Origin: Psammoneis japonica
Taxonomy: Eukaryota
DNA: 64,000 bases
Assembly: GCA_008632985.1 (NCBI GenBank)
Contig: QPGO01000009.1
Span: 682,001 to 746,000 of the forward strand
Direction: 5' to 3'
Below the pieces are notes generated by a model, which saw only the letters and a list, made by a program, of their open reading frames with translations, was not told the DNA's origin and searched no databases. A program made the position numbers and the translations under genes. Position 1 is the stretch's first letter. Each line of letters starts with the position of its first letter. Of the stretch, positions 229 to 57,240 are shown piece by piece.

Positions 229-2154
229 TTAACGATATTGAGCATGCCACCTTTTTTTATACAGAGTGTGCGACTCTCGGATGACTCTCGCAACGGCGCG
301 TCCTAGATTCAGGGGTACAGCATTGCCAATCTGTGCATTCTTCTGTGTCATGTTTCCTGAAAACTGAAAGTCATCCGGAAATGATTGGATGCGAGCTCGT
401 TCTCGGAGAGTCAAGCAGCGCTCGTGCCTGTAGTGCTTCGCAGGATTGTTCCTACGGATAGTCGCGACAGGCTGGTCCGAGAGAAGAAGCTGCATGATAC
501 CACTTTCTTTCAATTCAATCCCCTGTTTGGAGTGGTCCTTAATTCTTTTCCCTTTCAACATGATATGACCATAGTCTGTTGGGTCAATCTCCGCGAGATC
601 TCCAAGGACGTCCGCGTCTCCGGCACATTGATATGGTTGAAGACCTTCTCCATGGGTTGGCTTTGGAAAATGAGGGAGAGGGACGTCCTTGCGAGAGACA
701 ACTAGAAAGACGCGTGGCCTATCCTGAGGGTCTCCATAGTCGCTGGCTTTTAGGACCATAACTCGACTCTGATAGCCAAGTATCAACAGATCGCCATGAA
801 GCTTGTCAAAGTATTCGCGCTTGTTTTTTGAGCTGTTCTTATCTAAAATACCGAGTACGTTTTCAAGCGACCCAGTCAAAGGCTTGAAGAATCGAATCAA
901 CTCGACAAATTCCTCTACCAATCGATTATTGGCTTTGTCATTCTTCCCATTGCCTGTATTGACTCGGGAAAAGCCATCGCACGGAGGACTCGCATGAATA
1001 TGATCAACCGATTTTGGATAACCCTCTTTAGCGTCAACAGCGTTTCGTCGAAACACTTTTACACACTCCTCGTAGATCTCTGTACCGGGAAAGTTGATTT
1101 TTAGAGCAGAAATAGCATGATCATTATTCTCCACTTTATACAAACTCTGAAAGCCTTCTTGATCAAACGCCAAGGACGAAAGTCCACATCCTGCGAATAC
1201 ATCTAGGCAGCGGGGCTTGCCGTCGTGTGGCTCCGTCATGGGCATTGCCAAATCCTTGTAGCGGTAAGCACACGTAAACCCTGGCACCGATTCTTTGATA
1301 GACTTTTTAGGATCATCAGACTGGGGACCAAAGTAACCCTGTTCGTACACTACCATTGGCTTTCCAGGCCACGCTGGATGTCTGTCTGTGAGAGATTGTA
1401 GAGGAACTCGACCTTGATTCAAGACACCCATGGTGTTTGCCAGGGTGACCTTGTCTGGCTGTAGCAGACCTTGAGATTTCCAGGCTTCCGACACTCGCTT
1501 GGCCTCGGCCTCTCCTATAAATGTCTTATCCAACGACAAGGCAACTTCAACACAAACACCTTCCTTTACGCGTGTCTTATTTTGATGTATAAGCTTGGAT
1601 AGAGTGAAGAAATATCCCGGTTTCTGCTTGCAAGACCACGTCTCTCCACTTTTGTAAAGCCGTCTTTTACAGAACATTTTCGTTGAATCTTCCTTAATCT
1701 TGTGATGACTCGTGTTTTGTGAATCTGAGAGGAACACTCGAATGCTCGGTTGTTTCTGTTTAGAGACCTGTTGTTGCTTCGTTTCCTTCGTGTCTTCCCG
1801 CTTGGCACGTTTAGCGGCCCTTTCAGGATCATCGGCATCGGCTTTAGATTCCTCAAATTTATCTAGGACCTCCAAGTAAGCATCATCATTATCGTCATCG
1901 AGAAGTTGAGCAGCTTCGATTTCTTGCCAATCAAACTCAACCTGAGAGAGCTGTTTCTGGCATTGATCGCTCAAAGTTTCGCTTTCGGTACTGCTCTCCT
2001 CATCCATGTCAATACTTCTATGAACGATTTCTTCGGTAACACGTCGACTGTTCACGTTGAAAGCGATGCTGGGCGATGAGTCGTCAAAACAAATAGTGTT
2101 TCTCGCCGGCTCCTCTGTCGTGGAGTACATCTTGTTGTTGATGTTTTTCGCCAT
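229..2154 (-). CDS. C5 cytosine DNA methyltransferase, RID/Masc1 (DNMT4)-like
   Basis: Intact ORF with all catalytic motifs: I LDVFAGCG, IV HASPPCDGFS, VI ENV, VIII PQDRPRV, IX LTLRERARIQSFPD, X QIGNAVP. 'VDHIHASPPC..FS...GKND.AN' resembles the RID/Masc1 motif IV region. Likely ATG at 2154 (the ORF track extends to 2322 from a non-ATG start). Subfamily call is inferred from motifs. Confidence 0.92.
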   Translation of the reverse strand: MAKNINNKMYSTTEEPARNTICFDDSSPSIAFNVNSRRVTEEIVHRSIDMDEESSTESETLSDQCQKQLSQVEFDWQEIEAAQLLDDDNDDAYLEVLDKFEESKADADDPERAAKRAKREDTKETKQQQVSKQKQPSIRVFLSDSQNTSHHKIKEDSTKMFCKRRLYKSGETWSCKQKPGYFFTLSKLIHQNKTRVKEGVCVEVALSLDKTFIGEAEAKRVSEAWKSQGLLQPDKVTLANTMGVLNQGRVPLQSLTDRHPAWPGKPMVVYEQGYFGPQSDDPKKSIKESVPGFTCAYRYKDLAMPMTEPHDGKPRCLDVFAGCGLSSLAFDQEGFQSLYKVENNDHAISALKINFPGTEIYEECVKVFRRNAVDAKEGYPKSVDHIHASPPCDGFSRVNTGNGKNDKANNRLVEEFVELIRFFKPLTGSLENVLGILDKNSSKNKREYFDKLHGDLLILGYQSRVMVLKASDYGDPQDRPRVFLVVSRKDVPLPHFPKPTHGEGLQPYQCAGDADVLGDLAEIDPTDYGHIMLKGKRIKDHSKQGIELKESGIMQLLLSDQPVATIRRNNPAKHYRHERCLTLRERARIQSFPDDFQFSGNMTQKNAQIGNAVPLNLGRAVARVIRESHTLYKKRWHAQYR

Positions 2155-2199: not shown

Positions 2200-2414
2200 C
2201 AATTTGGGGGGCGTCTTTGGAAGTGAGATCGTCGAAGGCGGTCTGATCGCCAGTGCGTTTGGGGTTTTCCCAGTACAATTTGTACGCAAAAAAAACACGT
2301 AGGATCTGTCCAGAGGTCCCAAATACCCAATCGCACTGATTGACAGACTGTTTTAGTACAAATTCTACGTAACTTTCTTCGACAGTCTCACTTCCAAAGA
2401 CGCCCCCCAAATTG
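2200..2414. repeat. 38-bp inverted repeat pair (MITE-like or hairpin) between the divergent DNMT and ankyrin genes
   Basis: 2200-2237 caatttggggggcgtctttggaagtgagatcgtcgaag versus 2377-2414 cttcgacagtctcacttccaaagacgccccccaaattg (reverse complement, 2 mismatches). No clear TSD. Confidence 0.85.
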
Positions 2415-2751
2415 TGGTCGTCGAACCGAACGTTGGTCGAAGATGACAACATTGACCGTTAAACGGAAATATAGCATACGTCCTGGATGATTTAAATGTT
2501 TACATGACAATATCCAGGTCTGCATCTCGATCATAAATTTGGAAAATATCGAATTGACGAATGGGCCCGTGTGCTACTATGAGTCCGTCCGTCTATCCGC
2601 GACTGCACTGTCATCGCCTTTGCAGGCACGTTATCCGTCACCGGTGTCGTCCGCAATGATCACAAAAAGCAAACGCCGCCCCGGGTCTCTCTCTCTCTCT
2701 TGCGCTTGGTCCTGGGGACACATCGATCTGATGACACTACCTTATTACCGT

Positions 2752-5224
2752 ATGGAACCACGCACCAAAAGAAAAAAGACGGAGCCCAAGTCGGACATGG
2801 AGGCATTCGAAGAACTGGGTCAGCTCTGTTGCGGAGATTCTCTCTCGTTGGATCTTCTTCGTGAGAAAATTGAAGCGTGTCCCAAGGAGATCATTCAAGA
2901 ACAACTTTACGGCACCGAAACACTTCTTCATGTCGTCTGCAGAAACAAGAATGTAACATGTGACATTGTCAAGTGTGTCGCGGAGTTGCTTCCGGCGGAC
3001 GTGGCACTGCGGCGGTGCGCCGACGGAGACGCGAGCAACCCACCAGTGCACCTAGCATGCCTGAACGATCATTGCCCGAGCCCCGTGATGCACTTTCTCA
3101 TGTCTCAGCATCGAGAATCTCTGGAAGTGTCGAATCAAGAAGATGGGTTGCCGCTTCATTGCCTGATGAAGAGGACGCACCATGTGGATGTGGAACTCGT
3201 CAGGATGCTCGTTGATCAGCACCGTCCGGCACTTACAAATCAAGCTAACGAGTTCGAGAGTACCCCGTTTGACGTTCTCATTTGCCAGGACAATCCTTCA
3301 GTCGAAATCCTTCAGCTTCTTGTCGATGGTGAACATGGAGTTCTTTCTGAGCTCACAAACACTGATGGTCGTCTTCCCATTCATGAGATGGTTTTACTAG
3401 ATCGAACAACCCTGCCACCGATTGATGTTGTCAAGTTTCTTATTAATGCCAGTCCTCAGGAGGTGCTTGCAGCGCGCGATGATTTGGGCTCTACAGCATT
3501 TCAGACAGCTTGTACAAACCGAAGCATTTCCGTCGATTTCCTCCGCTTGTTTGTCCAGAAGAGACAGGATGTGATTTCGGAACGTACGTTACGCGGAGAG
3601 CTCCCACTCCACCTTCATTGCTCAAGACAGTTCAACCTCGACCCTCGTGTGTTAGAATTTTTGCTTTCAAGCTGTCCACAGGCGGTTCACTGTAAAGGTT
3701 TCGGTGGGAAACTTCCTCTTGCCCTTGCAGCAGCAAAGAACGCAGAAGCGGTGAAAATGCTGATCGACCGACACCCTGGCTCAGTTCGAGTTCTCGATCA
3801 TGGCGGAAGGACCCCCTCATTTTTGGCTTGTGGTGGACGCAAACTTAAATTGATAGAGCACCTTTACAAGGAGCATCCCGAGGCACTTTCCCTGAAGTCA
3901 ACGAATGGGGATCTGCCGATGCATCATGCGGCACACCACGGGTCAAGGGAAGTCATTGAGTTCCTCATTGAAAAGCACCCTTCAGAGTCTAAAAACAGGA
4001 ATGATGGGGGCGATCTGCCACTTCATTGCATCTGCAGTCGTGACGATGTTGACCTGCTTTTGTGCGCCAAACTGTGCGAGGCATTTCCTCCAGCCATTCA
4101 TGTCAAGAACGAAAAGGGTGAACTGCCTTTACACATCGCATGCCAGAACGCCAATGTTTCAGAAGACGTTCTCGACATCTGTGCAAAAAGCTGCCCGACG
4201 GAATCAAAGCTTCTGACAATGAAGGACGATTGCCTCTTCACATGGCAGCTGTTCGACGGAAGCGCTTCCTGGTGACGTCTCAAAGGGAAAGCAACTGTCG
4301 TCTCTTGAAATGGCTCGTAGACCGCTGGCCAGAGGCTGCAGGCATGAGCAGCCCGATTCACGGGCTGCCCACTCACTGCGTCTGTAAGACCCCGTCCGTC
4401 ACGTCATCGGCAGATCTCGAATCCGCCAAATGTCTCATCTCGATTTATCCAGAATCGATCAACAAATCTCATCCTTCTCCAGGCCTGCCTTTGGAGTGCG
4501 CCCAGTCATCAGCAGGCACGCGCTCGATTTTTGAATGCCTTGCATTTGAACGCTACGACAGAAACGCTTTGCCATTGCACTCTATCTTGAAGGATTCTGA
4601 CCTTCAAGATGAGGAGGCTGCTGCTTTGTTCTTTGTGGAGAGCTTTCCAGAGCATGCAGATGACATTGACGTGGATGGACAATTTCCATTGCATCTTGCT
4701 GCCCACTCAGTGCGGCGGCGTTCCCTGCTTGAAAGGCTTTTGGAGTTGAATCCACGGGCTGCTAGAGAGAAGGACAAGCTTGGACAACTTCCAGTGCACA
4801 TCGCGCTTGAGAATCCGTACCTCGTGCAATGCCATGTTGCAGCTGAGTTGGTTGAAACATGCAACGAAGGTTTGGGCATCGTTGACAACAAAGGGCAGAC
4901 GCCACTGCATGTTGCATGCAAGCACGGCGCTTCACTGCGGCACGCAATTGTGCGTTTGGTGGAGAGAAACCCTTCTGCTTTGGCCGCGAGGGACAAACGT
5001 CGTGAGCTCCCTCTCCACAAAGCCTGCAAATCAGGCAACGTGCCCATTGCTCGCCACCTTGCCGAGCAGCACGCACCGGCGATTTTTAAAAAAGATTCTT
5101 CATTCATGCTTCCATCTTACATTTGGCAGGTCAAGACCGCGAGAGCACCACAGAATCTGTTGACGCCATCTTCCATCTGCTGAGGCAACACCCCTTGGCC
5201 GTGCAGTCTGGTGTTGGAAGCTGA
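2752..5224 (+). pseudogene. Long ankyrin-repeat protein, frameshifted (about 4180 and 5115)
   Basis: Repeated G.LPLH.AC motifs across ORFs 2539..4275 and 4140..5183; a third frame gives the C-terminal VDAIFHLLRQHP ending at TGA 5222-5224. Tyr-poor. Confidence 0.8.
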
Positions 5225-5249: not shown

Positions 5250-7150
5250 TTGATGAATCGAACAGAGTAAATTGAACTCTGTTGCAAGACAACGTGCTTT
5301 AGTGAGAGGCATGGCCCATCCACTTCTGTTCTAAATTGTCGCCGTCCGACTGCGTCAAAACCGCGAAAGGACCAGGCGGCATCCACACAGAACACTTCCA
5401 CACAATGCTTGCACACCACGCACCTGAGTCTACACCGCGCGTGCCGATGACCAGCTTTCACACCTCGTCATGTCTCTCTTGGACACCAAACTCGATTGGC
5501 AAGTAGTTTGTGCCAAGATTGCTCAACAGAGTGGCCATCCTGAAGCCAACAAAGGTTGCAAAGGCACGCAATCCCAAAGTCCGCGATGCTTTGACAACCG
5601 AGTCATCCTTTGCATGGAGCTGTCTGTTTCTAACTCCGGCAGCTCTTGAGGCATGTCGAGGTGGTCACTTCCAATTGAAACGGCAATGCACCGGCAGGGA
5701 TGCTTTTCCGCAGTGACGCAAAAGATGCAAAAAGATTCAGCAATTTGACTGGGATGGTCAGTCGGGTCAATTCATTGCCACAAAGACGCTTGAGATGCAA
5801 CAGAGAGCAGGAAGCCATAAATTGAGTAGAAGTTGCAACGAGCTCCTTCCAACAGTCTAAGTCTGAAAGCTGTTGTCCTTTTGTTTTTTCAGAGTCTTTC
5901 CTCCGCTGCTTGGCATGCTGACTCGGCGTTTCTTGCCTTCCCAAGCCATTCAGAAAAAAGCCATTGGGGCCTTGTTGTCAGGGCACTCCTCCATCATCAA
6001 GAAGGTTGTCAATGTTGCATGGGTAGCTGCACATCAGCTGCAAGGGGAGCTCTTGTCCTCAGTCAAGACCTGCCACAAGCAGTTGCAGCCAAGAGACAAA
6101 GAGCAGCTTCTCCTTCTGACACCACCAAAGGAGACCCCTTGCCTGCTCATGGTGGCAACAAAACTTGAACATTGGCAACACATGTGCACCAACAGAGAAT
6201 TGCCACCACCTTGTCCTCGAACAAAAAATTGTCACCTTCACTGGACACAAGATCACTCTCCAGTTGAAGACATTCATCTCCTTTTGGCTTCAGTTGTTTT
6301 GCAAAATTTCCAACCAGCATCTGCTGTGCTCCCCAAGATTCCTTGCTTCTGCAAAAGCACAGTGTTCAACTGGTTTGATGACAACTCTGATTTTTCCCAA
6401 GTTTTTTGATGTCACAGCCCATGACCCGTCTCCACAACTCACCCAACATGCTCTGGAGAAAGTTTCTTTAAAATTTTGCCTGTGACACAAATGAGAGCAA
6501 GCAACACCACCAGGCTCTCATCTCTGTGTAATTTTTGTCTCCACAAAACTTGAAACTGTCAACCGATGGCTTGCACTGATGGAAGGCCTCTTGCTGATGC
6601 TGTTTTTTCACTCGCAGGCCTTGTTGCAGATGGATGAACACTGGTCGGCTGACAAATCAAACATTCAAATCAATGTGATGAGGGAGATGGAGTCTTGCCC
6701 CAAAAACTTGTCACAGCCATGATGCATGGAGGCATGATTTGCTCTGCGGCGGCAGCCCATGCTTTGCCAGCCAAAGAAACATTGAGGCACAATTGTTGCC
6801 CGGGTTGTCAGCCCCATCTTCAAGGATGCATTGGAATGGCTCTGGAGGGAGTTGATGAGGGAACGGCATGGTCACGATGATGTTGTTGGACAGACAATTG
6901 TGAGAGCAACTGCTAAAACAACAACAAGTGCTGATCAAAGATGGAAGATTTCGGATGTCGGGGCGTGGACAGCGAATCGTGACTCTTCAGCATTTGACTT
7001 GTGTGCTGTAAGCTGGGCTGTCTGTCTGGCTGGCCGGCCGTCTCGACATCTTGCTCGTCACTGCATCGCAATCATTGCTCTCCGATCTTAAATCTAAAAA
7101 GCTCACGCAAAATCTTTGTCACCCCGTTGACAAATTGTGGTGGCGCAAGA
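5250..7150. other. TpA- and CpG-depleted domain with a degenerate, unidentified coding or TE relic
   Basis: Almost no TA and few CG over about 1.9 kb, with a TG/CA excess; normal composition resumes near 7240. Confidence 0.75.
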
Positions 7151-14699: not shown

Positions 14700-16850
14700 C
14701 CCACCTCGTTGGACACCCAGCAGTCGATCAAGCCACCGTGGTGGGACAAGCGCACGACATCGAGGACAATCGATTTGTGCCTTTGGCATGCTCACAGTGG
14801 GCTGCAAAGAGATGGAAACCCTGGAGAAGGAATTGTGTCAACAAGTGGGGCACACACCGAGATTGGGGGGGAGGCTTTGCCTCGACGGACGGGATTTGTG
14901 TGACGCCCTCTCTCTGCCCATGACAAGGAGTGGAAAGATTGTGTGCACCACATTTCATGCAAAATTGTCACTGGTGAAGTGGGGTCCTTGGGTGATGTGA
15001 ATGCCCTGGTGGACCTGTCCATTGTTGACACCTTGATTGAAAAGATGAGCACACCAAATGAGCGGGCAAGAAGCAAGAGAAAAGGCTGTGCATGGGTGAG
15101 AGGGCAGCAAAGCAAGAGACTGTCTCCCATGGAAACAAGAGAACAAGCTGCATCAGCACTCAAGTGGGTTTGTGAGGTCTCCTGTGGTCAAATCATTTTT
15201 GTCAGGAAAAGTCGTCGTCGACCCCCCGAGAGGAGAGCAGTGTGATGAAGTCACAACTGGCACAAAACAGCTGTTGATTGCTGACAAAGTTGCAGCACAG
15301 CATTGCCTTGCTCCTTGGAAAAGACACTGGGTTTCTCCATGATGACACAATGAAAAATGTCAGGGTTGTTTTGAGCTTGTGTCAAAATGTTGGTGGCCCA
15401 AAGAGCATCTGGCACTGAGTCATCCCCAAACAACTTGAGGACATTTTGTTGAATCTTTTGGTGGTCCTCAATTTCTGCCTGGAGGTCATCCCTCAGCCAG
15501 TGCAAACCACAAATTGCATGTCTCAATGGCAGTGTTTTGCTTCATGCCTTGCACCCAGACATCCACCCCATCTTTGCCAAAGCAGTTTCCATGGGTGTTC
15601 AACCATTTAAGAGTTTTCTTGCCTCTGGGCATTGGGCTGGTGCCATGGCTCATTTGTCTCCAATGGAGAATCTGACAGATTTTGCTGTTCTGTTGAACTG
15701 CAGCCGTGCTCCAGTGCAATCTTCGCCTTGATCTCCAATGCTGTTCAAGAAGGCGAGGTTTTTTTGTTGTTGTTTGAGGCTGGCTCAATGTTTTGAACAG
15801 ATCTTTTGTGCCATCTGAGCCAACCCCACAGGCTTGCTCTGTTTGGCATGTTGAACTCCTTCAAATTTGATTGTTTTGAAATTGAAAGGTGGGTGCATGC
15901 ACAAAAAAAAGTTTTGTGCATCACACTTGCCCTTGTTCAACTTGGGAAAAAATTGAATTTGAGCAAGAGTGATGGGAGTCGAGCCTGTGCGCATCACCTG
16001 GAGCTGGAACAGGCCAAAACAAGTGAGATCTAAACAATGGGTCAATCACTTGAGAGAAAAAAAAAGGTTTTTTTCAACAAACATGCAGTGTGCCTTCGCT
16101 TCCAATCAGGCCTTTTTTTGTCATTGTCGCAGAAGCACAGAACGTCAGGACTCTCAGCTCTGGAAGAAACAAGAGTGTGCTTCAGACAAAAGCACAACAC
16201 CCTCTTGGTCAATCTTGGCCTGTTCCAGCTCCAGCTGAAGCACAATCCATGGCATGAGAGGCCAATTTTTGGTGCAGTTTGGCACGTTGAGCTTCTTCAA
16301 ATTTGATCGTTTCAAAAATCGAAAGGTGAGCCTGCACAAAAAAATGAAATTTTCATGCACACGCGTCCTTCAATTTGGGAAAAATGATTTTGAGTGAGTT
16401 TGTTGTGCCAAATCATGCAAAAGTGGGTGCCGGTGATGGGAGTTGAGCCGGCGCGCATCACCTGGAGCTGGAAGAGGTCTCTCATTTCCATGCAGACAAA
16501 GCTCTGAAACAATGCATTCTTGATGAAGGATGGAAGTTTTCAGCACAAGTTCTTGAGTTCAGCTGTCTCAGGAATGCTTGTCTTGTGACTGACCCAACCA
16601 ACCTCTCAATCGGCGAGACAGCCCTTGGCTCATTGTCTTCCTTCCGGACGCTGTCCTCCAGATGATCTCTGAGAGACTCTCTCATGATGATTTTGCTTGG
16701 GATTCAAAACCACACCAACAGTCGATGGTTGGGATGAAATGGGAGAGCTTTCAGTGCTTGATCGAGTTTTGGGTTTTGGTGTTGTGAATGCGAAGAATTT
16801 TTCCAGTCGTGACTGTGCCACAGCAGGACTTCATCGCCGCAGGGCATCCA
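14700..16850. mobile_element. TpA/CpG-depleted repeat domain with nested direct and inverted repeats (probable DNA-transposon relic)
   Basis: Direct repeats 15845-15911 vs 16281-16346 and 15969-16010 vs 16433-16474; perfect 20-bp inverted pair 15998-16017 vs 16215-16234; TA almost absent. Confidence 0.55.
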
Positions 16851-17048
16851 CTGCACCCTGATTGTCAAAGGAACCAAGTCGTTTTCGTTGAAAGAACCGA
16901 CACACCAACACGCCGATCGATTGCACTCACGAAAAAAACGAGAAACGCCAAGGGCGAAGCAGATGTCGAAGAAGACGATGACACTCGCGCAAAGCACAAC
17001 ACTAAACGCATCCAACCAATGAAATAGCACAACAGTGAAGGCATCACC

Positions 17049-33952: not shown

Positions 33953-36788
33953 CTTCATCCGGCAAGTGACAATTGTCCATGAGGAAACACCGTGTCATTT
34001 TTTGGGTTGTGCAATGCAGTGCTGTTTCCACATGTTTTTTGTTCACGCGCCATTTCGTGCCACCTTTCGTGCTGCCACAAAAACCTGCTGTGGACGGCCC
34101 CATTGAACCACTTCTTTTGGCCCAACCACAGCATCAAATGCCAATTTGATTCAATGGCATGACAGTGCAGATGCTCCAGTGCCGACTCCAAGTGCACGCT
34201 CCTGTCAATTCTCTGCCAGAGATGGCACCTTCACTCCAAAAGAACAGAGATGCTCCAGGGGTGCTTTGGCACCGAACAGCTCCCGACTCTGTTCTGGCTC
34301 TGCCCTGAGACACACTTCAGCATCCTCACATGATTGGCCCACATTGTTTGCCAACATTGAAAACTCATTCTCACTCAAAAAATCTGCTGGATTGCACCCA
34401 TCCCCAATGGCGTCTGGCTTTTGGGTGCCGCAGATTCTGTTCGCTCCTTCCCCGGATCAAGGTGCTCAGTCACCTCCACTCCCACGGGATTCTGCATCTC
34501 TTCTGAGTCAGAAACACACTAAAAAAACTTCCAAATTCCACAGTGAAGTGATTGTGAATCCTTTGTGAAAAATCATCCCTCCCACCACACTCAAAAAAAC
34601 AGTGTTCGCCACTTGACTGTGGTGCACAAACGACCGGGCAATGCCTCCCTCTGGACAGCAATCACAAACACAACAAATGGATGCCCACAGTTGCTTCCCT
34701 TGCAAACGTCAACCACTGTTTTCAAGCCCTTGGTCTTCAGTGACCATCTTGGCCATTGCTGGAAAGAGCATGCATCCTCAATGTTGGCCAGTGGGAAAGC
34801 TCCCAACCATGCTGAGTGAATTCATGATCAACGCAGGCCAAGAGAACTGAGTCAATGTGTGGCATTGCATTGTCACACCGGAGCTGAAGATGCACTTGTT
34901 TCCCAACATTGTTCTCCACCCTCTGAGACAGTGCTTCCATCTTTGTTAACAGAACATTGCAGAAGTGATGCAACAGCTCAAACTTTAGATTTTGTTGCAT
35001 CCCTGAGTTTGATCCAGCAACTCTTGGATGACAGAATGATCCATCAACTCTGTGCACATGGCAATGCAAGCAATTCTTTGTTTTCAGCTTTCCACTGGCA
35101 CAAGCACAATTGACCTTGTGCGTGTGGCCCCCTTTCTGAAAATCATTTTTGGCAGGCACAAATGCTGTGGTTGCAAGTGCCAAGACCTCACCAACATGAT
35201 GTTTGTGGTGCACTGCATGTGGCTCCGGAATGCATCCAAGGAAGAGAACAGTTTTGTTGTGTTGGCAAACCACCAATGAGTGTGACCACTTTTTGTTCAT
35301 GTGCAAAACAAGAACTTGAGTTGTCAAAGCTGTCATCTTGGTCCCATGCCAAAAGACATGCCGCACAATTGACCAGCACTGCTTTTGTGTGTTGTCGAGT
35401 GCAAGCAGCAGTGAGCACAGGGAGGGCCCAAGTGCTGGCGCATGATGATTCTGGTGGGGACTTTGCAAAACACATCAACATGACATGTGCTGCAGGTTTC
35501 ACATTTGTGTTTCTGCCAACAACCTGACAAAGCAAGCTTTCTCTGTGTTGTTCTTCATCTGTTTGTCTTCCTCAAAATTTTTCCTGCCTTGCCTGTCAAA
35601 ACAACCCAGTTTGCCATTTCAACATTTCAGCTCCTTGGACAAATGGCAGATGGCTCTCTGCAGCAAGTGACTCAAAGGGTTGTTTCAACTCAATGTCATC
35701 ATCAAACCATTCCCCATGATTGTTGTTGGCTCTTTGGCACCACTTGAGAAGTGCTCACATGGTGTGTGGACCTGACCCTGCTTGTTGTCCAAGTTCAATG
35801 CTGTCACACCAGTGCCACACCGCTTCTTCTTTGACATGTCATTGTTTTGCTTGAGAACCCATTTGTGCATCCTGGGTGCCAGTCATCTTTTTCATCACAC
35901 TCCAAGCAGGTGCATGATCAATGAGTGGATTTGCCCCCCTTTGTGGATTTCACTTGGTGTCAATGCATTTGCAACATTTTGGGTGTCACACAGCAGCCTT
36001 CTCACTGGTGACAGCAGCTGAGATTTTGGCTTTGGGTGCAGACAACTGGCAGCAGAAGCCACTGCCTGGTGAACCCACCCTTTCTCCTTCACTTCACCCT
36101 GTCTGGGGTGTTTCAACATGGCACTTCTTTCCAATCCCACTCATGACCCAATCTTCTTTTGCCTTTAGAAGCAGACCTGTGGTGCCTTTTGGTCTTTGTT
36201 GTGTTTCTGTTGTGCCCACAGTTTTGCTGCCAATGCTGTGGAATCAAGCTTGTTTGTTGTGTTCTGTCGTCAATGTCGTCAATGGCCGTTCAGCTTCAAA
36301 TTTGTCAATTGCTGATGAACACTTGTAAAGAGCCACCAATGCTGCAGGAGAGAGTCTCCTTGTGACAATGTCAAGACTGAGTCTGTTGTTGAATGCATGC
36401 AATGCATTTGCTTGACCATTGGCAGCATTGAAGCCCATGGCAAAGCCAACTCGACCTTTGCTGTCAGGTCATCCCGGCAGCACAGCATTGCGGCATGCCA
36501 CACTGCACCCCGCCAATGCACACCAGCTGAGTGGATGCTTGGATGTGGTGGAGAAAGAGGGTCCATGGTGCCGAGGCACATCATCACATCAAGCAGCAGT
36601 TGATGGCATGAGCAACACATCTGATTGTCACTGCAGCAGCTCCATGTGCTCTGATGGTGGTGGGCCATGGATGAACTTTTCCCTCCAAGAAAATTTCTTG
36701 CTGCACAGCAGAAGCATGACTGCACTGCATGGCCCAAAACAAACAACATGGCATTTTGTCATGGACAATTGTTGCTTGCCAGAGGAAG
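33953..36788 (-). mobile_element. Tc1/mariner-superfamily DNA transposon relic with Stowaway-like TIRs
   Basis: TIRs: cttcatccggcaagtgacaattgtccatga at 33953 versus the reverse complement of the right end cttcctctggcaagcaacaattgtccatga (to 36788). Decayed DDD motifs on the minus strand: HMNKKW (from H.DEKW), CDNAMPH, NIEDACSF. Flanks TG and CA are consistent with a mutated TA TSD. Confidence 0.8.
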
Positions 36789-38229
36789 CACCTGCTGGCA
36801 GCTGGAACAATCAACAAATGACAATGGGAGGTGCGCGTCACTGGACAAAGACGACTCCCATCAGATTCGACTCTCAGACTGACTGACATGCCAAAAGTCA
36901 TTTCGACAGAAAGCAAACGCTTCAAGCCAAGGCTGTGGCTGATTTGTTTGCAAGTCTCAAAGTCTCAGGTGCCACCCCAAAGAAAACACAAGCAAGCTCA
37001 GTGTGTGGATGGGGCAAGCAGTGCGGTCTGACCACAACCAACCCAGAAAACCACTGTGTGGTTGCCATGATTTTGGGTGTGGATCTGCACTTTGATGTTG
37101 ACGAGAGAAAAAGGTGTGGTTGCCATGAGCATTGCTGCAGACTCCAACTCTGACAGCAACAAAGGGAATCCTGGTGGGTTTCTTGACATTGATGTTGTTG
37201 CAAAGCAACGTGACACAATTTTTGGGGACTTGAGAAGTGGTGGCAGTGGCGCCTCAGTGCAGCAAAGTGCAGCAAAGCACCGAGCGCAGATGCAGTGCCA
37301 TGCTGCATCATGGTTGAGTTTGCTCATGCTCTTTTTCAGACAAGAGAGAATGAACATGTGAGGCATTCAATGCATTTGACATTCATTGTCATCAATTAAA
37401 ATGTGAGTGTGCAGATGAAGAGGAAATCCGGGCCACACCAATCATTTGGTTGGTGGGAAGCATGGTCCAAAGCACATGGACAAAACTGTGGATCCATGGT
37501 CTCGCCGACTGCACTGCGCTTTTTTGTGCTCCATTGGCTTGGTGCCTCAGTTGCATTGAAGGCATGTTTCAAAAACACATGGGTGCAGTTGATGCAGGCT
37601 TGCACAAATGTTCTGGTCATTCTGCAGGAGTCATCACCACCTGCACAGCTAAAACCCAGAAAGACATTGTCGTTTTGCCAGGTGTTGGATGTGCTTGCTA
37701 GATCCAGCTCAATGACCACTTCCACAAGATCATTTTGTGTTAGCATGATGCTGTAGCAACTGCGCGTTGTTGCCCTTGCCGGCCATCTGTGTTTCCAACA
37801 AGTGACCTCTGTGTCAATGTTGTTGCGTGCACGTTCAATGTTTGGCTTGCTGTTTGTAAGGCTCTCTAATGGATGCTGGAACATGGATTGATTGTGGAGT
37901 TCCACCACAGCGTTGCTTCTTTTGTCTTCTTTGAATGGTCCTTGCTTCACTTGCTGCTTTCTCAGTTGTTGCCATGGTGTCTTAAAACTGAGGACAAACT
38001 GGAGTGAAGTGGGTGTGCAACAATGGACATTTGAACAATCAACATCCTCTGCTCTTGCAGCCACTTCTGTGGTCCCAGCTAAGTCCTCTGCCAACTGCAG
38101 CCATGAGATCATGCTTTGATTGTCTTTCAATGCTGCCATTGCCATGTCCGCCATGGTTTGCCTTTTGTGCTGCCAGCCCTGAGCAAGTCAACCCCACCAG
38201 AAACAGCGTTCAGTCGCCACAAAAGCTTC

Positions 38230-39725
38230 CATTAAGAGTCACCTGGCAATTCACACTCTTCCAGATCAACCACAATCGGTTTTGTTCTTCTGAACTCATC
38301 ACGAAGCATCATGTGATTGCAAAAATTTGGTCCCCGGTCATCGCCATCCACATCCAAATGACGAAAGCCACACTTCTCTTCAAGCTCCCACAACACTTCA
38401 CCCTAATCTTCAAGACGAGCACATTGAGGCGGTGCCTCCACCATTTGCATGCCAAAATAGATCACACCAAAACCTTCGGCAATGAACTTTGGTTCCAGAA
38501 CAAGTCGACCCCATGCATCCTTCAAATGTTCACAAGCATTGATCTCTCGTTCAAACGCTTTCATGCCATTGTTCTTGCAAGTGTCAAAGAGTTTCAGCGC
38601 AACTGTTTCTCCCTTCCACGTCCCACTGAATGTTGTCCCATGACGGCCATGCCCAATTGGCTTGCCCACTTCAAAATGCCGAGAGTCACCGCAGAGACAA
38701 TTCCTGCAGCGTGAGACCGAGATTTTGATTTTCTTCCACCTGTCCTCCAAGATTTCCTTCAAGAACTGGAAGAGTTTCTTTTTTTAGAATTGCTCTGATT
38801 CAGTCGAGGATGGAGCTTCGCTTTCAATTTGTCCGGCGTGCCTTCAAGCCAGGTCCGAGCAAGAGCAGCCTTGTCAAGAGGTGGCTGAGTGTCATCACGT
38901 CCACTTGCGTAGAAGAAAGCCCATGCGCAGAGGCAGTTCTCTTGCCCGACAAACCATGCATCACTTGTGTGCACCTTCTCTCCCCCAGTTTCGGCATCCC
39001 GGTGCATGAGAACAAAACAAGTTCTCGCTCCACTTGTGAGAACACCATGTCGACAACTGTCAAGCACCATGTGTCTGAGAATTTGTGAGACGGGGTGACA
39101 AACATGAGACCACCCCAGGGGGCGTCGCTGTCTGTCAGTTCTGTCTTCCGACGTTTGATCAACAACCTCTCTTGCATGGTTGCATTGCGCGACCACTTCT
39201 TGCACTGTCATTGGCAGGGGCAAGTCATGTGTTGACTTGGATGCCCCCACAACTGTTGGTTGGGTTGCCTGCCATTCTGTTGAGAAGTCAGGGGCACCCT
39301 CGCGATTTCTCGAACCCCTGACTAAATTGCCGATTGGGCCCAACTGCTGGAGCGGTTGCAGTGCGAATCTTGCCAAATGATTCTCCTCATCCCTCTCGTC
39401 ATGGCACTCAATGTCATCCGCAAGACTTTGCTTCATCCCACTCACCATGTGACATCCCACTCTTCCATCTCCATTGGCACTGAAACTCGTCACTGGTTCT
39501 GCAAATCCGCGCCAGGTTTCGATCCTCAGTGGACAATGTCAATTGGCGTGACCCTCAGATGCCGGACTGTGGCACAATGCGAGTTCATCACTGGCAAGGA
39601 GACAGGGTGAGGCAACGCAAAGCGACAAAAACTCCTCGTGTGTCAGCTCTCGAAATGGAGAGACTTCATCAAGGCAACACAAGGCGATCTGTCTCTTTCT
39701 CTCTTGCCGTGCCGCACGTTCATTG
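38230..39725 (-). pseudogene. Crinkler-like nuclease-fold + protein-kinase gene relic
   Basis: HPVSQILRHM..RHGVLTS..RTCF followed by IGHGRHG..WKGETVALKLFD..FEREI.ACE.L..WG.LV, D.RGPNF and VVDLE; frameshifted, with Tyr replaced by His/Cys. Confidence 0.6.
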
Positions 39726-41073
39726 ACTTCATCATCAGCAAGAATGATTCTTTGCTCACTGTTTGTGCTGACTCCCAAATCTGATCGTTGTGACAGATCA
39801 AGATTCAGGACGATCCCACTGTTGCTGTTCTCCTGAAAATGGACATGGAAATCGGCAATGGCGCCCGCAAGCTCTGACTGTCCGAATCATCCATGTTTTG
39901 CGTCCTGATCACCACATGCCAGTGCGCGATCGATTGATGTTTTACTGAGCGAGATGTGAGAAGAAGCGAGGAATCATCGCTGTGGCGGCGCCGAGCGGGC
40001 GGTGAGGCTCACGATCACTCTCCAGCCATCATGACTGTCCTCAACCCGTGACTCAAGGGTGCATGAGGTGTGCCCAGGATTTTCAGTCACGAGTTAAGAC
40101 ATCAGAACCTGTTGATATGAAACTGGGACAAACACGTCTGAATGGCCTCTTTTCTTCTACAGCACCGGCAAAACACCCTGCAATTGTGAAATCTGAACTC
40201 TGGGAGCATTTTCACGGGTGACAGAGAGCAAAACAGACTGAAGAAGCAAGGGGTGGATGTGTCCTTCAGTCCCCGTTCTCAAGACAGTTTTCATTGTCGT
40301 TGTGCTTGTGACTTTCGTTCCCTTCATTGCTTCTCGTTTCTCTGTTTCCTCAGCCAGAGTGAAGGTGCGAGTGGCGCTGCAAGGGAAGATTCAAACTTTC
40401 AGTTGTCAAGGCAGAGGGCACTTGCACTCCCGCCCAACATCCAAGCTGCCTCTCTGGGGCCCTGCTCTCTAGCTGCTAGCTCTAGAGCAACAAACAAGTG
40501 ACAGTGGGAGGTCCATCACTGCTAGATGCCTCCTCAGTGGCAGGTGAAGACGACTCCTCCCACCGGATTCGACGACTCTCAGACTAACGAACAGACACCG
40601 GCGGCATAAATCCAAATGGAGAGTCATAGAAGAGTCATTTCGATAGAACAATCTTCATTGTCTTTCCCTAAGTTAGTCCGAAAATGTCACGGCACTGACA
40701 ATTGTCCTAAATGTCATTCCTCCGGGGTCTTTGTAGATGACTTAAAGACGGTGTCAAAAAAGTGTTTAAATCGGTCATCACCACAAAAACAATCGCATTC
40801 TCACTAATTGACAATACCGTTAGTGACCTCCCCTAAGTGATCGCCAAGACATTTCCATTGTAGATTTGTCCGATTACGATCACAATTTGAGGCACAAAAC
40901 ACTCCAAACGCAACCGGTTGTGCCAGCAGAGAACCGCAACAGAGCTCTCCGAACGCGTTGCAGTCATAATCCGGTTGGAGCAGAGCTTTAGCAGCATCCT
41001 TGCTGTTTGTTTGTTGCCATTTACTTCGTCCTTTGACAATATACAGAAAAGCTTCTCCTTCCGGTTTACCAGG

Positions 41074-46749: not shown

Positions 46750-48560
46750 AGAAATGTTGACAGAGTGCCTGATGTTATCCACACTTCCCCAATGCACGGC
46801 AACAAAATGTGCCCAAAACAGCGTGGCTTGTTGGGGCCCTGAAAAAAATTCACAGGGACCAAATCCCACCAAACTGCACACTTGGGCTTGTTGGGGCTGC
46901 GTCATGTCAAGGAACATGGCTGGGCAGGTGAATCTGCCAAACTGCAGAAAAGAGGTGCAACACCTCTTGCAAGATGCCACAGCAGTGATGGAGTCTCACC
47001 ATGCTCCTCTCTCCTGGATCACAGCTGACTCAACTGAAAACACTCTTTGAAGATTTTGAGTGCTTTGCGGGTGCTGCACGCCACCATGGCAGGAGTCCAT
47101 TTCCTTTTTGATGTGTTGCGACATTGCCAGTGCATCAACACCAAAGATCCAAAAGCCCAACCTGCAAAACTGTGCTGGTGCAGTCTGGGCATTTGCATCC
47201 ATCAGACACTCATCTCTCCACTCTTGCTTTTTGTAATGCAACTTTGCTTGCCAAAATTTTGTGCATTTGAAATTGAAACAATTTGATCCTCAAGAGGTTG
47301 TGAGTGCCCCACAGGTGACTGCTGAAGTCAGGCACTTGCATCCACTGCTCTTTTTGTCACAAGTTGGGGAGATGCTCAACAGCTGCAAAACCTTGCCAGC
47401 ATCGTTTGGGCACATGTGCAGCCATCTTGCACACTTGTTTTCTTTGCTTGTTGACACACACCATTGCCAAAGAATCCATTTTGAAACTGGATGAGTTCAC
47501 ATCCCAAGCCATTTCCAACACAGCTGGAACACATGGTGGTGTGCAATTGGAAAGCTTTTTTTGTTGCTTTTCAGTCAGCCCAAAATTGCAGATGTGTCAT
47601 TGTCGAAGCAAGCTGGCACAGCTCAAGCCTCACGACTTTGCTTTTTTAAGTGTCTTGTGGGCATTTGCTGCTGACAGCCACTCACCCATCTTTTCTGCTT
47701 CTTGGCAATGTTGCAAATGAGTCAGATCAAAAAAAATGATGTGACAAGCAAACAACCAGTGGCAGGTCTCTGTGTCCCCTCTTGTGGGCAATTGTCTGGA
47801 ACGACAATTTGCAGCAACTTTCTTGATGCTGGCTGTGTCTAGACCAGCATGTGTTTGGAATGAGACAAACAGAACTCAGCACATGATTGGAGCAACTTGA
47901 CTGCCAATCAAGCTCCATTCAACATCCATCAATTGGCTGCCCTCTTGTGTTGACATGGTGAAACCCCAGTTTTTGGAAAATGCCCAGAAGCACTTGTGCC
48001 AGCAATCCTTTGTTGCCCTGTGCTGCAGTGCCCATCTCCCTGTTTGTCTCATTCAAACAGCTGTAACTTGGCTTGGAGCAGAAAAAGAAAATCATCCCAG
48101 CTTGCATTGCCAGTCTCCTTGTTTGTGTTCTCCAAGCCCCTTGTCTGCCAACCCCAGCAACTGGAGATGGGTTTTGACACCATGTTTGTGAGAAGAATCT
48201 GCAATTTCAAAACCAAGGCCATGACAACTCTCTGCATTGTTGTTGTTCCTTGAAGCTCCCTGTGCATGGCACAACACAAGAAATCATGGAGTTTTTGCCC
48301 TGCAGACCCCTCACAGAGTTGCGGGTTGGAGCAAAGCTGCACTTTCGGTGAATCAGACAACAAGTTCCTCTGGATGGCCACTTTTTGTCTCTGTCAAGTG
48401 TGCATGCCATTGGGGCAAGGTGAGCTGTGATGGAATGCATCTCTCTCCAGAATGACACTTGTGCGTGCTTGGCAGCCAGGGCCAGGTGAGTTGTGATGAT
48501 GGACTGCCGGTGGCCCTGCTGCACGCTGCACCTTTTGCCACTTGCGCACGTGCGGCACAC
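46750..48560. other. TpA/CpG-depleted domain, content unidentified
   Basis: Near-absence of TA and CG, with an abrupt return to normal composition near 48580. Confidence 0.75.
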
Positions 48561-49325: not shown

Positions 49326-50878
49326 GAACAAAGTATTCGTGACCTTTGTCACTCTTCCCGCTGACTGGTATGTTTTGGAGACACTCTGTTGGGTACGAAT
49401 GGCTGAGCGGAGGGTACTGAGAAGGGTAGGAGGGATCTGCGTTCTGTGACTCAAGGAATCAACTGCCCTGACCATACCATAACGTTCGCTCCCAACGCAA
49501 CGTGACTGGCGCAATCACCGCTGCAAGTCCCAGGCGAAGCTGCTCTGTCGCCTTCTTGCAACTGCGAGAACTTAGCTGTTGCGCTGCTGGTGGTCTATTG
49601 TTGACATCGCTGTCCCGACGTTTATTACACCTCGGCACACTGCGACGACGTTTTTTAATGCCGTTGTTGGTACAAGAGATTCTAGGGATGCCTTGAATAA
49701 TTTCATGTATGTGTGCTCACCTCGTAACGCTTGACAAAATTGTCGTACTTTCCAAATAATGCATGTGTAAGGTGGGGACACCACCGGTCGTAACAAACAA
49801 TGTTTCTGGTTGACATTCACAGAGAGAGACTACGTTTCTTTGCCTTCTTCTGCTTTCTTAACGATCCTTCTCAGCGTCTCAACGTAGTAGTGGCCTATTT
49901 CTTCTTCAACCTGAGCACTTAAGGCGGCTTCAAACGACGAACGACAACACCATGAAATTATTCTGGAGAAAGGATCTGATGGTAGAAACGCGATGGTCCA
50001 ACCAATTGTGCACGAAGATCTTTTACTGTCACTGGAAGTCTCAGTAGGTTGAATGGTGAATGTGAATGTTTGGCATCCCAGAGGCGTCCATTTACTGGAT
50101 TCCATCATTTCTACGCCAGCATTCACCGAGTAGTACGGCTCCTCATCGATTTGTGTAATTGTTTTGCGCAAAACAATTTCACCACCTCGAAAGGTGCGCC
50201 GTTCATCCCAACAAGCCCCAACAGTCGATGGCTCACCCCTCACAAACTCGACCGATAGCAGGTGTGGAACAAACTCAGGTGCGGAAGTTATGTCTCGGAA
50301 CGTGGCTCTTGCCATCTCTGGAGTAACATCTGGAAATTCAAAAGATCCGCTAACGATGAATTCTCGACATGTTGAAGCGAGAGGTCCCATTGTAGTTTCG
50401 AGTAAATTTGCTCGTTAATTTGCAGCTGTTCCAAACGACAATAGTTCTGCTGCTTTTTGGTGCTGCAGTTTGGCAAAGCGACGGTTTTAATGTAAGGATT
50501 GCAGCAGTGACTCATGTAAAGCATCAAGCACCAATTAGTCCGTTAAGCAATCTGCTCGTGTCCAGATGAACAACAAAGGCTGCGTACAGTTCTTTTCTCT
50601 ATGGATATTGTGCGTAGATCAGCAGAACACGTCCGGGTCGTCAAGGTCCGAAAATTCCATGTGCATGAACATGAACCAGGTGTGATATATCCATAGTAGT
50701 TAGAATAACTGAGAGCAAGACAAGACCTGAATGGTTCCAACGTGTTGTCTTCATCGTCACCGACAAAAGAGTGTGGTTACCTTGTGGTTGCCACTGCTCT
50801 GACAAGCTGTAATTACACCATTTCGCGCAGCAGTGCAGAAACTCCGACGTGTCCGCGCCCAACGCAAAACAACCCGTG
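49326..50878 (+). repeat. Segmental duplication, copy 1 (copy 2 at 61829-63368)
   Basis: About 1.55 kb colinear and highly similar, starting gaacaaagtattcgtgacc and ending cgcaaaacaac.cgtg. Confidence 0.95.
49830..50390 (-). CDS. SRPBCC/START-like (polyketide cyclase) domain protein
   Basis: 186 aa; P.LLSVE...VGA.W.E.R.F.G pattern and a C-terminal helix. Confidence 0.75.
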   Translation of the reverse strand: MGPLASTCREFIVSGSFEFPDVTPEMARATFRDITSAPEFVPHLLSVEFVRGEPSTVGACWDERRTFRGGEIVLRKTITQIDEEPYYSVNAGVEMMESSKWTPLGCQTFTFTIQPTETSSDSKRSSCTIGWTIAFLPSDPFSRIISWCCRSSFEAALSAQVEEEIGHYYVETLRRIVKKAEEGKET

Positions 50879-56900: not shown

Positions 56901-57240
56901 ATGCATTGCATGGTGTGGACTCACTGAAAGCATCCCAATGTCGGTGGACAGAAGCTGAACTTGCAGCCATCCATGACAAATGCCAAGAACACCTGGCAAA
57001 GGACAGAGAGGCTTTGTCAGATTTCCTTGAAGATCCCATGTCCAGCTCTGCATCCAGGGCTCAGAATTGGGTCACCATGGTCAATCCACATGATCCAAAG
57101 GAAAGCATCAAGAAAGTGAAGAGCCCCACACTTCACAGCACTCCCACAGTCACCAGCTGTGGATTCACTCGCAAGAAGGTTCAAGCTACCTGCATCATCT
57201 ACACAATTTGTCCACAACATTCACGTGTGTTTTGAAATGA
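50950..57240. other. 6.3-kb TpA/CpG-depleted domain with decayed gene relics
   Basis: TA and CG both nearly absent; contains an SRPBCC paralog relic and weak LRR- and PPR-like traces. Confidence 0.85.
54810..54990 (-). pseudogene. Hypermutated SRPBCC paralog fragment
   Basis: FIFGKSLEFPDIAPETARATF...HLVSVEFVGSQPPKV aligns to FIVSGSFEFPDVTPEMARATF...HLLSVEFVRGEPSTV (49830..50390). Confidence 0.75.

What the first reader, a model, noticed from the sequence alone, without database searches (positions are those of the whole stretch)
229..2154. Intact RID/Masc1 (DNMT4)-like methyltransferase in a genome with RIP-like repeat mutagenesis
Seen: a complete C5-MTase with an N-terminal acidic region, a possibly BAH-derived segment and a motif IV context 'VDHIHASPPC..FS' like RID/Masc1. 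Established: RID is required for RIP and Masc1 for MIP in ascomycetes, and DNMT4-type genes occur in diatoms. Inference: it is a natural candidate for marking repeats that are then hypermutated. Proximity (about 3 kb from the first depleted domain) is weak evidence in a eukaryote, and a C5-MTase would not directly produce A->G.
Basis: partly seen in the sequence, partly recalled or inferred. Interest (0 to 1): 0.7.

Follow-up and report, generated by a model that had tools for sequence, protein, structure and literature searches.

The report
Diatom DNMT4-type cytosine methyltransferase gene
This is an intact, conserved DNA cytosine methyltransferase of a known diatom family that is a probable cousin, but not a member, of the fungal RID/Masc1 enzymes, and nothing ties it to the unusual loss of TA steps in this genome's transposons, which runs opposite to fungal RIP.

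Summary
The ORF is real (229-2154, minus strand, 641 aa): disordered acidic N-terminus, a BAH-fold domain that Pfam misses, and a complete C5-methyltransferase domain, under purifying selection against a dead duplicate 65 kb away. It nests in the diatom 'DNMT4' family (99/95). It is not RID/Masc1: motif VI is ENV, not EQT/EET, and grouping it with RID-type proteins is rejected (AU p=0.002). The two families are sisters in the best tree (97/89; 90/80 without retrieval columns), but RID+DNMT1 is not rejected (p 0.23-0.49). The link to repeat mutagenesis is unsupported: the erosion is TpA to TpG/CpA, opposite to RIP; it precedes CpG loss (20 retroelement copies: TA 18-98, CG 62-72); three 85-95% duplications, this gene's included, are spared; Bigelowiella natans shows the same hypermutation with no DNMT4 in two published tables; 46 of 128 bins of the window are depleted, so proximity means little. 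The genome holds three apparently intact paralogs (one with a chromodomain), a DNMT5-like gene and several eroded dead copies. This scan noted the TpA erosion many times elsewhere in this genome, but not this gene. Verdict: new member of a known, functionally untested family.

The parts
229..2154 (-). DNMT4-family gene, single open frame, 641 aa
   Evidence: dN/dS 0.43 against its dead duplicate
1702..2154 (-). Acidic, predicted disordered N-terminus (residues 1-151)
   Evidence: pLDDT <50
1240..1701 (-). BAH-fold domain (about residues 152-305), conserved T-F-[LI]-G motif
   Evidence: not detected by Pfam
280..1212 (-). C5-cytosine methyltransferase domain (residues 315-625) with short target-recognition region
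   Evidence: PF00145 E 2e-48; model matches M.HaeIII 1dct at Z 33.5, rmsd 2.4 over 291 residues
1168..1197 (-). Motif I (FAGCGLSSLA), SAM binding; L325 and A329 replace near-invariant glycines
976..1008 (-). Motif IV (VDHIHASPPCD) with catalytic Cys392; D393 instead of Q
856..864 (-). Motif VI, canonical ENV (RID/Masc1 have EQT or EET)
   Evidence: PMC6709928 and PMC6572847 passages
2200..2414 (.). High-copy MITE-like element with 38-bp inverted ends, 45 bp upstream of the start codon; absent from the duplicate locus; keeps its TpA
2746..5183 (+). Neighbouring ankyrin-repeat gene in two frames, duplicated together with the methyltransferase; TpA-eroded in both copies
5700..7000 (.). Nearest domain depleted of both TpA and CpG (5.4 TA/kb, 17.7 CG/kb against 40 and 52 in the gene)
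   Evidence: only itself matched in a genome DNA search

Best explanation
A functional member of the diatom DNMT4 family, a stripped-down DNMT1-superfamily enzyme (one BAH domain plus catalytic domain, no RFTS, short target-recognition region). Most likely it docks on chromatin through the BAH domain and methylates cytosine by the standard C5 mechanism (Cys392 nucleophile, Glu431, Arg479/Arg481, SAM), as a minor de novo or stage-specific methylase beside a DNMT5-like enzyme that accounts for bulk CpG methylation and CpG decay of transposons. It is a bystander to the TpA erosion, which is a separate process acting on adenine or thymine (best guess: a TadA/ADAT-type DNA adenine deaminase aimed at silenced DNA). 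Shown: ORF, fold, family, selection, direction and independence of the TpA change. Inferred: catalytic activity, nucleosome binding, division of labour with DNMT5, identity of the mutator.
For: Inside the diatom clade at 99/95 with named Cylindrotheca, Thalassiosira and Bacillariaceae proteins. BAH fold. Purifying selection: dN/dS 0.43 over the gene, 0.38 in the catalytic domain; where one copy keeps the family residue the dead copy has lost it 20 times and the window copy twice; a neutral ORF stayed open in 0.1-2% of 1000 simulations. C392, E431, R479, R481 intact. DNMT5-like gene at L025 (Tudor plus methyltransferase with SC for PC; family label from my reading); DNMT5 loss alone removes CG methylation in P. 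tricornutum, which lacks DNMT4 (PMC9998398). TpA erosion: at 91 sites of 20 retroelement copies TA, TG and CA all occur, so TA is ancestral; TA 18-98 per copy with CG 62-72; A followed by a pyrimidine is hit more (0.30-0.35 against 0.18). Duplications spared. B. natans precedent without DNMT4.
Against: No activity or expression data. L325, A329 and D393 are unusual and 16 of 89 conserved columns deviate (family median 10, range 1-25, n=120), so activity may be weak or altered. TpA and CpG loss coincide in the most eroded domains, so both act on the same silenced DNA and a methylation mark upstream is not excluded. The two tables for B. natans are imperfect: one rests on transcriptomes, the other misses the T. 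pseudonana DNMT3/4/5 that the first lists. Copies are related, so site counts are not independent events. The deaminase is only a guess: the genome searches show single ADAT2-like and TadA-like genes and no expansion.
Confidence: 0.6

Rival explanations
1. One reading: this enzyme, or its family, marks transposons and so licenses a separate A-to-G mutator, a RID-like trigger coupled to a different effector.
For: Family is sister to RID-type proteins in the best trees (97/89; 90/80) and shares HxSPPC, the Cys-to-Glu spacing and a short target-recognition region. ESM Atlas nearest clusters are ascomycete methyltransferases of 576-753 aa. BAH is a chromatin reader fold, and a paralog on C34 has a chromodomain. 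TpA and CpG loss co-occur in old domains. The family is expanded in this genome.
Against: B. natans does it without DNMT4 and on a single-copy region in clonal lines. TpA loss without CpG loss in young copies. No further cytosine context was depleted beyond CpG (CC 0.86 in both depleted and control DNA). TG-versus-CA swaps, the mark of independent hits: 0 in 1702, 0 in 1807 and 0 in 1472 columns of three duplications, 29 in 2943 in the ankyrin pair. Proximity is expected by chance (46 of 128 bins have TA o/e <0.25). If any paralog has this role, the chromodomain copy is the better candidate.
Confidence: 0.12
2. A developmental or scaffold protein with little measurable DNA methylation, like Podospora PaRid, acting at a few loci during sexual reproduction.
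For: PaRid needs its catalytic Cys for fertility (0 of 89 and 0 of 55 C403S transformants complemented; PMC6709928 passages). Non-CG methylation is scarce in diatoms and DNMT4 function is unknown. Odd motif I and IV residues are old, shared in kind with the duplicate, and kept under selection.
Against: ENV, lost in RID/Masc1, is kept. No expression data either way.
Confidence: 0.2
3. A recently acquired bacterial or viral restriction-modification methylase.
For: Single open frame; prokaryotic proteins not used to build the family profile score 245-295 bits on it, above RID-type (up to 237) and DNMT1 (235-269) proteins.
Confidence: 0.03

Closest known systems
Diatom DNMT4 (Hoguin et al. 2023, PMC9998398; T. 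pseudonana Thaps3_11011 type)
   Same: Diatom-restricted family, 1-3 copies per species, some with an N-terminal chromodomain, moderately supported relation to RID, function unknown.
   Different: The paper describes most members as a lone catalytic domain; here a conserved BAH-fold domain precedes it. This copy has L325, A329 and D393 at conserved positions. Direct orthology to Thaps3_11011 was not tested.
Fungal RID/Masc1/DmtA
   Same: HxSPPC motif IV, 39-residue Cys-to-Glu spacing, short target-recognition region, similar size; sister group in the best tree.
   Different: ENV instead of EQT/EET; outside the clade (AU p=0.0019); no detectable similarity between the N-terminal domains by profile comparison; genome signature opposite to RIP.
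DNMT1/MET1/CMT (ZMET2)/DIM-2
   Same: BAH domain packed before the catalytic domain; best structural matches (Z 34-37 over about 420 residues).
   Different: One BAH only, no RFTS or CXXC, no large target-recognition insertion, no chromodomain inside the catalytic domain; outside the DNMT1/DIM-2 clade (98/98; CMT not in the tree).
TpA hypermutation of Bigelowiella natans (Mettrop et al., bioRxiv 10.64898/2026.01.13.699255)
   Same: Same change (TpA to TpG/CpA), local, aimed at foreign or mobile DNA; closest known system for the genome signature.
   Different: Reported for integrated viral DNA in a rhizarian listed with only DNMT2 and DNMT6; here in retroelements, an ankyrin gene and dead DNMT4 copies, often followed by CpG decay.

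Membership tests
RID/Masc1 (fungal DNMT4) | EQT or EET instead of ENV in motif VI | tested here: not met
   ENV at 431-433; 117 of 124 family rows ENV, 0 of 124 with QT or ET; definition from PMC6709928 and PMC6572847 passages
RID/Masc1 (fungal DNMT4) | Falls within the RID clade | tested here: not met
   13 EQT/EET proteins form a clade at 100/100 without it; forcing it to join them is rejected, p-AU 0.0019. The EQT/EET set is from unnamed metagenome contigs, taken as fungal from the triad and from neighbours
RID/Masc1 (fungal DNMT4) | Short target-recognition domain | tested here: met
   98 residues from motif VIII Arg to motif IX Arg; continuous profile match as in RID-type rows, against a 200-residue gap in DNMT1
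RID/Masc1 (fungal DNMT4) | Catalytic Cys in HxSPPC(Q) motif IV | tested here: met
   HASPPCD, Cys392; D for Q; same context in 107 of 112 retrieved loci, which the search pattern required
RID/Masc1 (fungal DNMT4) | Needed for RIP or MIP, or for sexual development | not testable with these tools
   needs knockouts and crosses
DNMT4 in the wide sense (diatom DNMT4 + RID as one clade) | Monophyly of the two groups | tested here: inconclusive
   97/89, 90/80 without the retrieval columns; RID+DNMT1 not rejected, p-AU 0.234 and 0.493; RID stem is long (about 1.0)
Diatom DNMT4 (Hoguin 2023) | Clade with diatom C5-methyltransferases distinct from DNMT1, RID and prokaryotic enzymes | tested here: met
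   21 rows, 99/95 and 100/96; named members; most rows are unnamed
Diatom DNMT4 (Hoguin 2023) | Some members carry an N-terminal chromodomain | tested here: met
   3 of 61 scanned hits and the C34 paralog, E 2.5e-5, just under the Pfam cut-off; not this copy
Diatom DNMT4 (Hoguin 2023) | Reciprocal best hit to T. pseudonana Thaps3_11011 | not tested
   that sequence was not among those returned
DNMT1/MET1/CMT/DIM-2 | BAH domain before the catalytic domain | tested here: met
DNMT1/MET1/CMT/DIM-2 | RFTS domain, second BAH, large target-recognition insertion, place in the clade | tested here: not met
   CMT itself was not in the tree
Repeat-induced point mutation | C-to-T change, CpA/TpG consumed and TpA gained | tested here: not met
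   depleted domains: TA o/e 0.05, CA 1.77; TA ancestral at 91 sites; definition PMC2621366
Repeat-induced point mutation | Hits duplications over 400 bp and about 80% identity | tested here: not met
   three linked pairs of 1.4-1.8 kb at 85-95% show flat spectra (transitions/transversions 105/106, 31/25, 70/46) and no TG-versus-CA swaps; the duplicated ankyrin gene is hit; three pairs only
Repeat-induced point mutation | Acts in the premeiotic stage of the sexual cycle | not testable with these tools
   no data; the B. natans process ran in clonal lines
Prokaryotic R-M C5 methylases | Groups with prokaryotic or phage enzymes, no chromatin domain | tested here: not met

The most novel reading that the evidence does not exclude
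Diatom DNMT4 enzymes are the sister family of RID and do RID's upstream job: through a hidden BAH domain (and a chromodomain in some paralogs) they pick out and mark mobile DNA, but here the downstream effector is an adenine-directed mutator that erases TpA, a 'reverse RIP' whose victims include the family's own extra copies.
Probability: 0.1. Interest if true: 0.85.

Novelty: new member of a known kind. Interest (0 to 1): 0.3.

Why it matters
Diatom DNMT4 is a widespread family (31 of 60 species in Hoguin's table) whose function nobody has tested. Two small additions come from this work: the family has a BAH-fold domain that places it architecturally with DNMT1/CMT and suggests nucleosome reading, and it lacks the RID motif VI signature, so it should not be used as evidence of RIP in diatoms. 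The striking biology in this genome is the TpA mutator, not this gene; a genome with three intact DNMT4 paralogs, DNMT5 and an active mutator would let one ask directly whether cytosine methylation guides A-to-G hypermutation.

Tried and rejected
Pfam finds no BAH in the protein or in 61 relatives; only the family profile and the fold search do. Profile comparison of the diatom BAH region with the N-terminal region of the EQT/EET proteins gave nothing (probability 0.08); inconclusive, as it is also weak against DNMT1 BAH (at most 13.5 bits). No named RID/Masc1, CMT or Thaps3_11011 sequence came out of the protein searches; 2 EQT proteins looked up were unnamed; an Atlas query with a truncated EQT protein returned phage clusters and says nothing on its origin. 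A first tree lost all RID rows through a faulty cut and was discarded. Expression: no RNA holder listed. Tet_JBP search of the genome was blank with no control ringing, and earlier notes of this scan report TET/JBP-like genes in this genome's transposons, so thymine oxidation remains an untested rival for the mutator. Prokaryote genome scan: 27 pattern matches, none a relative. Search for a second depleted cytosine context: none beyond CpG-containing words. Literature: no paper on TpA erosion in diatoms or on DNMT4 function (open-licence library only); bioRxiv supplements of Mettrop et al. were not seen; 10 of 23 supplements of PMC9998398 were not searched. Rejected: proximity as evidence; the gene as a decaying copy (selection); polymerase-eta-type WA mutagenesis as the main source (recalled signature; LTR pair has 18 TA changes and 0 AA changes).

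Full report
1. Observation. The minus strand holds one open frame from ATG at 2154 to TAA at 229, 641 aa. Pfam gives PF00145 at residues 315-625, E 2e-48, and no other family above cut-off. The AlphaFold model (118-row alignment, mean pLDDT 80.7) is disordered over 1-151 and confident afterwards. Residues 152-305 form a beta-rich domain: the family profile aligns it to the BAH of maize ZMET2 and weakly to DNMT1 BAH1; the whole model aligns to DNMT1 and ZMET2 from their BAH domains onwards (Z 34-37, about 420 residues); folded alone (pLDDT 88) its 17 best matches among 48,161 chains all carry BAH domains (ORC1, PBRM1, EBS, ASH1L, DNMT1, AIPP3 and others; Z 5.5-8.5, rmsd 3.3-6.2; that these entries carry BAH is from their titles or, for a few, recalled). 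Z values are middling, but the agreement of the rows and the profile match make the call firm. Catalytic residues C392, E431, R479, R481 are present. Three positions are odd: L325 and A329 in motif I and D393.

2. The gene is maintained. The window is G000:C10:682001-746000 in a 91 Mb genome. About 65 kb away lies an inverted duplicate of the methyltransferase, the ankyrin gene and 1.8 kb of flank, plus a second fragment. The duplicate methyltransferase is 85% identical and dead (7 stops, several frameshifts); dN/dS between the two is 0.43. At 22 sites where only one copy keeps the family residue, the dead copy is the deviant 20 times. No RNA run was available.

3. Family. A search with the catalytic part returned 215 clusters at E up to 1e-30; the best 150 were listed. 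Where named, close hits are diatoms: Seminavis, Cylindrotheca, Thalassiosira, Skeletonema and Bacillariaceae; the host is therefore inferred to be a diatom. Three of 61 scanned hits have a chromodomain, as Hoguin et al. describe for diatom DNMT4 (PMC9998398, passages; Supplementary Data 3 whole). The genome search for PF00145 gave 27 matches. DNMT4-family loci among them: three apparently intact (this one; C59, 753-aa frame with EMV; C34, with introns and a chromodomain) and dead copies on C10 (two), C297 (three), C301 and C28. Other matches look like DNMT2, DNMT3, DNMT5 and DNMT6 (labels from my reading of their motifs).

4. Relation to RID/Masc1. The published hallmark is EQT or EET for ENV in motif VI (PMC6709928 and PMC6572847, passages). 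This protein has ENV, as do 117 of 124 family rows; none has QT or ET. No named RID came from the protein searches, so I scanned metagenome contigs for H-x-S-P-P-C-Q followed at this protein's spacing by E-[QE]-T: 112 loci, 107 of which translate into methyltransferases scoring 43-237 bits on the family profile. Of 29 neighbouring ORFs scanned, 10 had Pfam hits: eukaryotic or general housekeeping families, including chitin-synthesis CHS5, and one second exon of the gene itself. I treat these as RID-type; they are unnamed. An IQ-TREE mixture-model tree of 58 chosen rows and 287 columns (21 diatom-family, 13 RID-type, 10 DNMT1/MET1/fungal DNMT1-DIM-2, 14 prokaryotic or viral; no CMT, DNMT2, 3, 5 or 6) gave four clades, with the window protein inside the diatom one (99/95) and diatom plus RID-type as sisters at 97/89. 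Dropping the 10 columns fixed by the retrieval pattern lowers this to 90/80. AU tests reject the window protein joining the RID-type clade (p 0.0019) but do not reject RID-type with DNMT1 (p 0.234 and 0.493). This matches the literature: moderately supported sisters, paraphyly not excluded; Sarre et al. confine DNMT4/RID to fungi (PMC12344493, section 5), though their table misses the T. pseudonana enzymes. The Atlas placed ascomycete methyltransferases of 576-753 aa nearest. Verdict: diatom DNMT4, probable cousin of RID, not a member.

5. The genome signature is not RIP. In 46 of 128 bins of 500 bp TA o/e is under 0.25. Pooled depleted domains have TA 0.05, CG 0.25, CA 1.77, against 0.59, 1.03, 1.15 in control DNA. 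RIP consumes CpA/TpG and makes TpA (PMC2621366, passages). In the 20 best of 43 listed matches (277 candidates) of a retroelement from this window, TA ranges from 18 to 98 per 1.5 kb while CG stays at 62-72; at 91 sites TA, TG and CA all occur, at 13 sites CG, TG and CA. So TA is the ancestral state, either strand is hit, and TpA loss comes before CpG loss. A followed by C or T is changed more often (0.35, 0.30) than A followed by A or G (0.18, 0.18); copies are related, so this is a tendency, which fits the recalled UAC preference of TadA-type deaminases. Simple duplication does not trigger it: the methyltransferase pair, the 95% flank pair and a pair at 49326/61829 have flat spectra and no TG-versus-CA swaps in 1702, 1807 and 1472 columns, while the ankyrin pair has 29 in 2943 (control GT-versus-AC 4) and the C297/C301 copies 63 in 7346 (control 6). 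A MITE with at least 40 copies at 95-100% keeps its TpA, though it is short. The nearest fully depleted domain matched only itself (such a search can miss eroded copies). Against my reading: the duplicated ankyrin gene is eroded in both copies, and high-copy elements are the main targets, so some dependence on repetition or silencing is real.

6. Is the enzyme involved? A C5-methyltransferase has no chemistry for A-to-G (established). For an upstream role the best natural test is Bigelowiella natans: mutation-accumulation lines show 230 of 231 changes in two viral inserts as A:T to G:C, all at TpA, one insert single-copy (Mettrop et al., parts 1-3 of 5 read; supplements not seen). B. natans is listed with DNMT6 only (Hoguin Supplementary Data 2 row) or DNMT6 and DNMT2 (Sarre table row). 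So the process can run without DNMT4, if the two processes are the same. In diatoms bulk CG methylation of transposons depends on DNMT5, and a DNMT5-like gene is present, which suffices for the CpG decay. No other cytosine context is depleted. The family's own extra copies on C297, C301 and C28 are victims (4.5-5.8 TA/kb against 27-46 in the intact genes and the C10 duplicate; C28). Proximity carries no weight: over a third of the window is depleted and the other two intact paralogs also have depleted DNA within a few kb.

7. Mechanism and odds. Most likely (0.6) an active BAH-guided cytosine methyltransferase of minor or stage-specific role and a bystander to TpA erosion; 0.2 a PaRid-like developmental factor with little bulk activity; 0.12 the upstream marker for the mutator; 0.03 a prokaryotic import. 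Activity, expression and chromatin binding are inferred, not shown.

8. Novelty. New member of a known, untested family. The BAH fold of diatom DNMT4 was not seen in the papers returned (Hoguin et al. describe mostly lone catalytic domains); those searches are narrow. Interest 0.3.

Noticed in passing
window 2200-2414: MITE-like element with 38-bp inverted ends 45 bp upstream of the start codon; 40 scored of 187 candidates are 95-100% identical; contig depth about 12,700 against about 50; absent from the duplicate locus, so it may have rewired this gene's promoter.
   Followed up: partly
L035:4385-6776 (G000:C34): DNMT4 paralog with introns, canonical motif I and a chromodomain (E 2.5e-5); a better candidate than the window's gene for heterochromatin-linked methylation.
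   Followed up: partly
L031, L032, L033 (G000:C297, C301): DNMT4 copies sit in 7-10 kb repeated units (87-99% alike) with several long ORFs lacking Pfam hits, all stripped of TpA and tyrosine; possibly cargo of a large mobile element.
   Followed up: partly
window 2746-5183: Ankyrin gene with TpA falling from 17 to 10 per kb along its length in this copy, and the same gradient in the duplicate, although the duplicate is flanked by undepleted DNA; it lies in two frames, and one contig of run X1 has a one-base insertion at 4175.
   Followed up: partly
window 4074, 4232, 4271, 4274: Single contigs of run X1 read TA where the window reads TG, with letters unlike the duplicate copy: a hint that erosion differs between haplotypes.
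   Followed up: partly
window depleted domains (5700-7000, 15001-17000, 34001-40500, 47001-48500, 51001-57000): Surviving TpA sites are mostly TTAA, CTAA/TTAG and CTAG; ATAN/NTAT sites are almost gone.
   Followed up: partly
L042:1351-1953 (G000:C26) and L039:1327-2055 (G000:C38): Single ADAT2-like and TadA-like deaminase genes, candidates for the TpA mutator; no expansion seen in two family searches.
   Followed up: no
L003:211-2469 (G000:C59): Intact paralog with EMV in motif VI, a variant shared with two database relatives.
   Followed up: no
window 49326-50764 and 61829-63250: Direct duplication at 86% identity, 12.5 kb apart, with a 194-codon frame of unknown kind; not TpA-eroded.
   Followed up: partly
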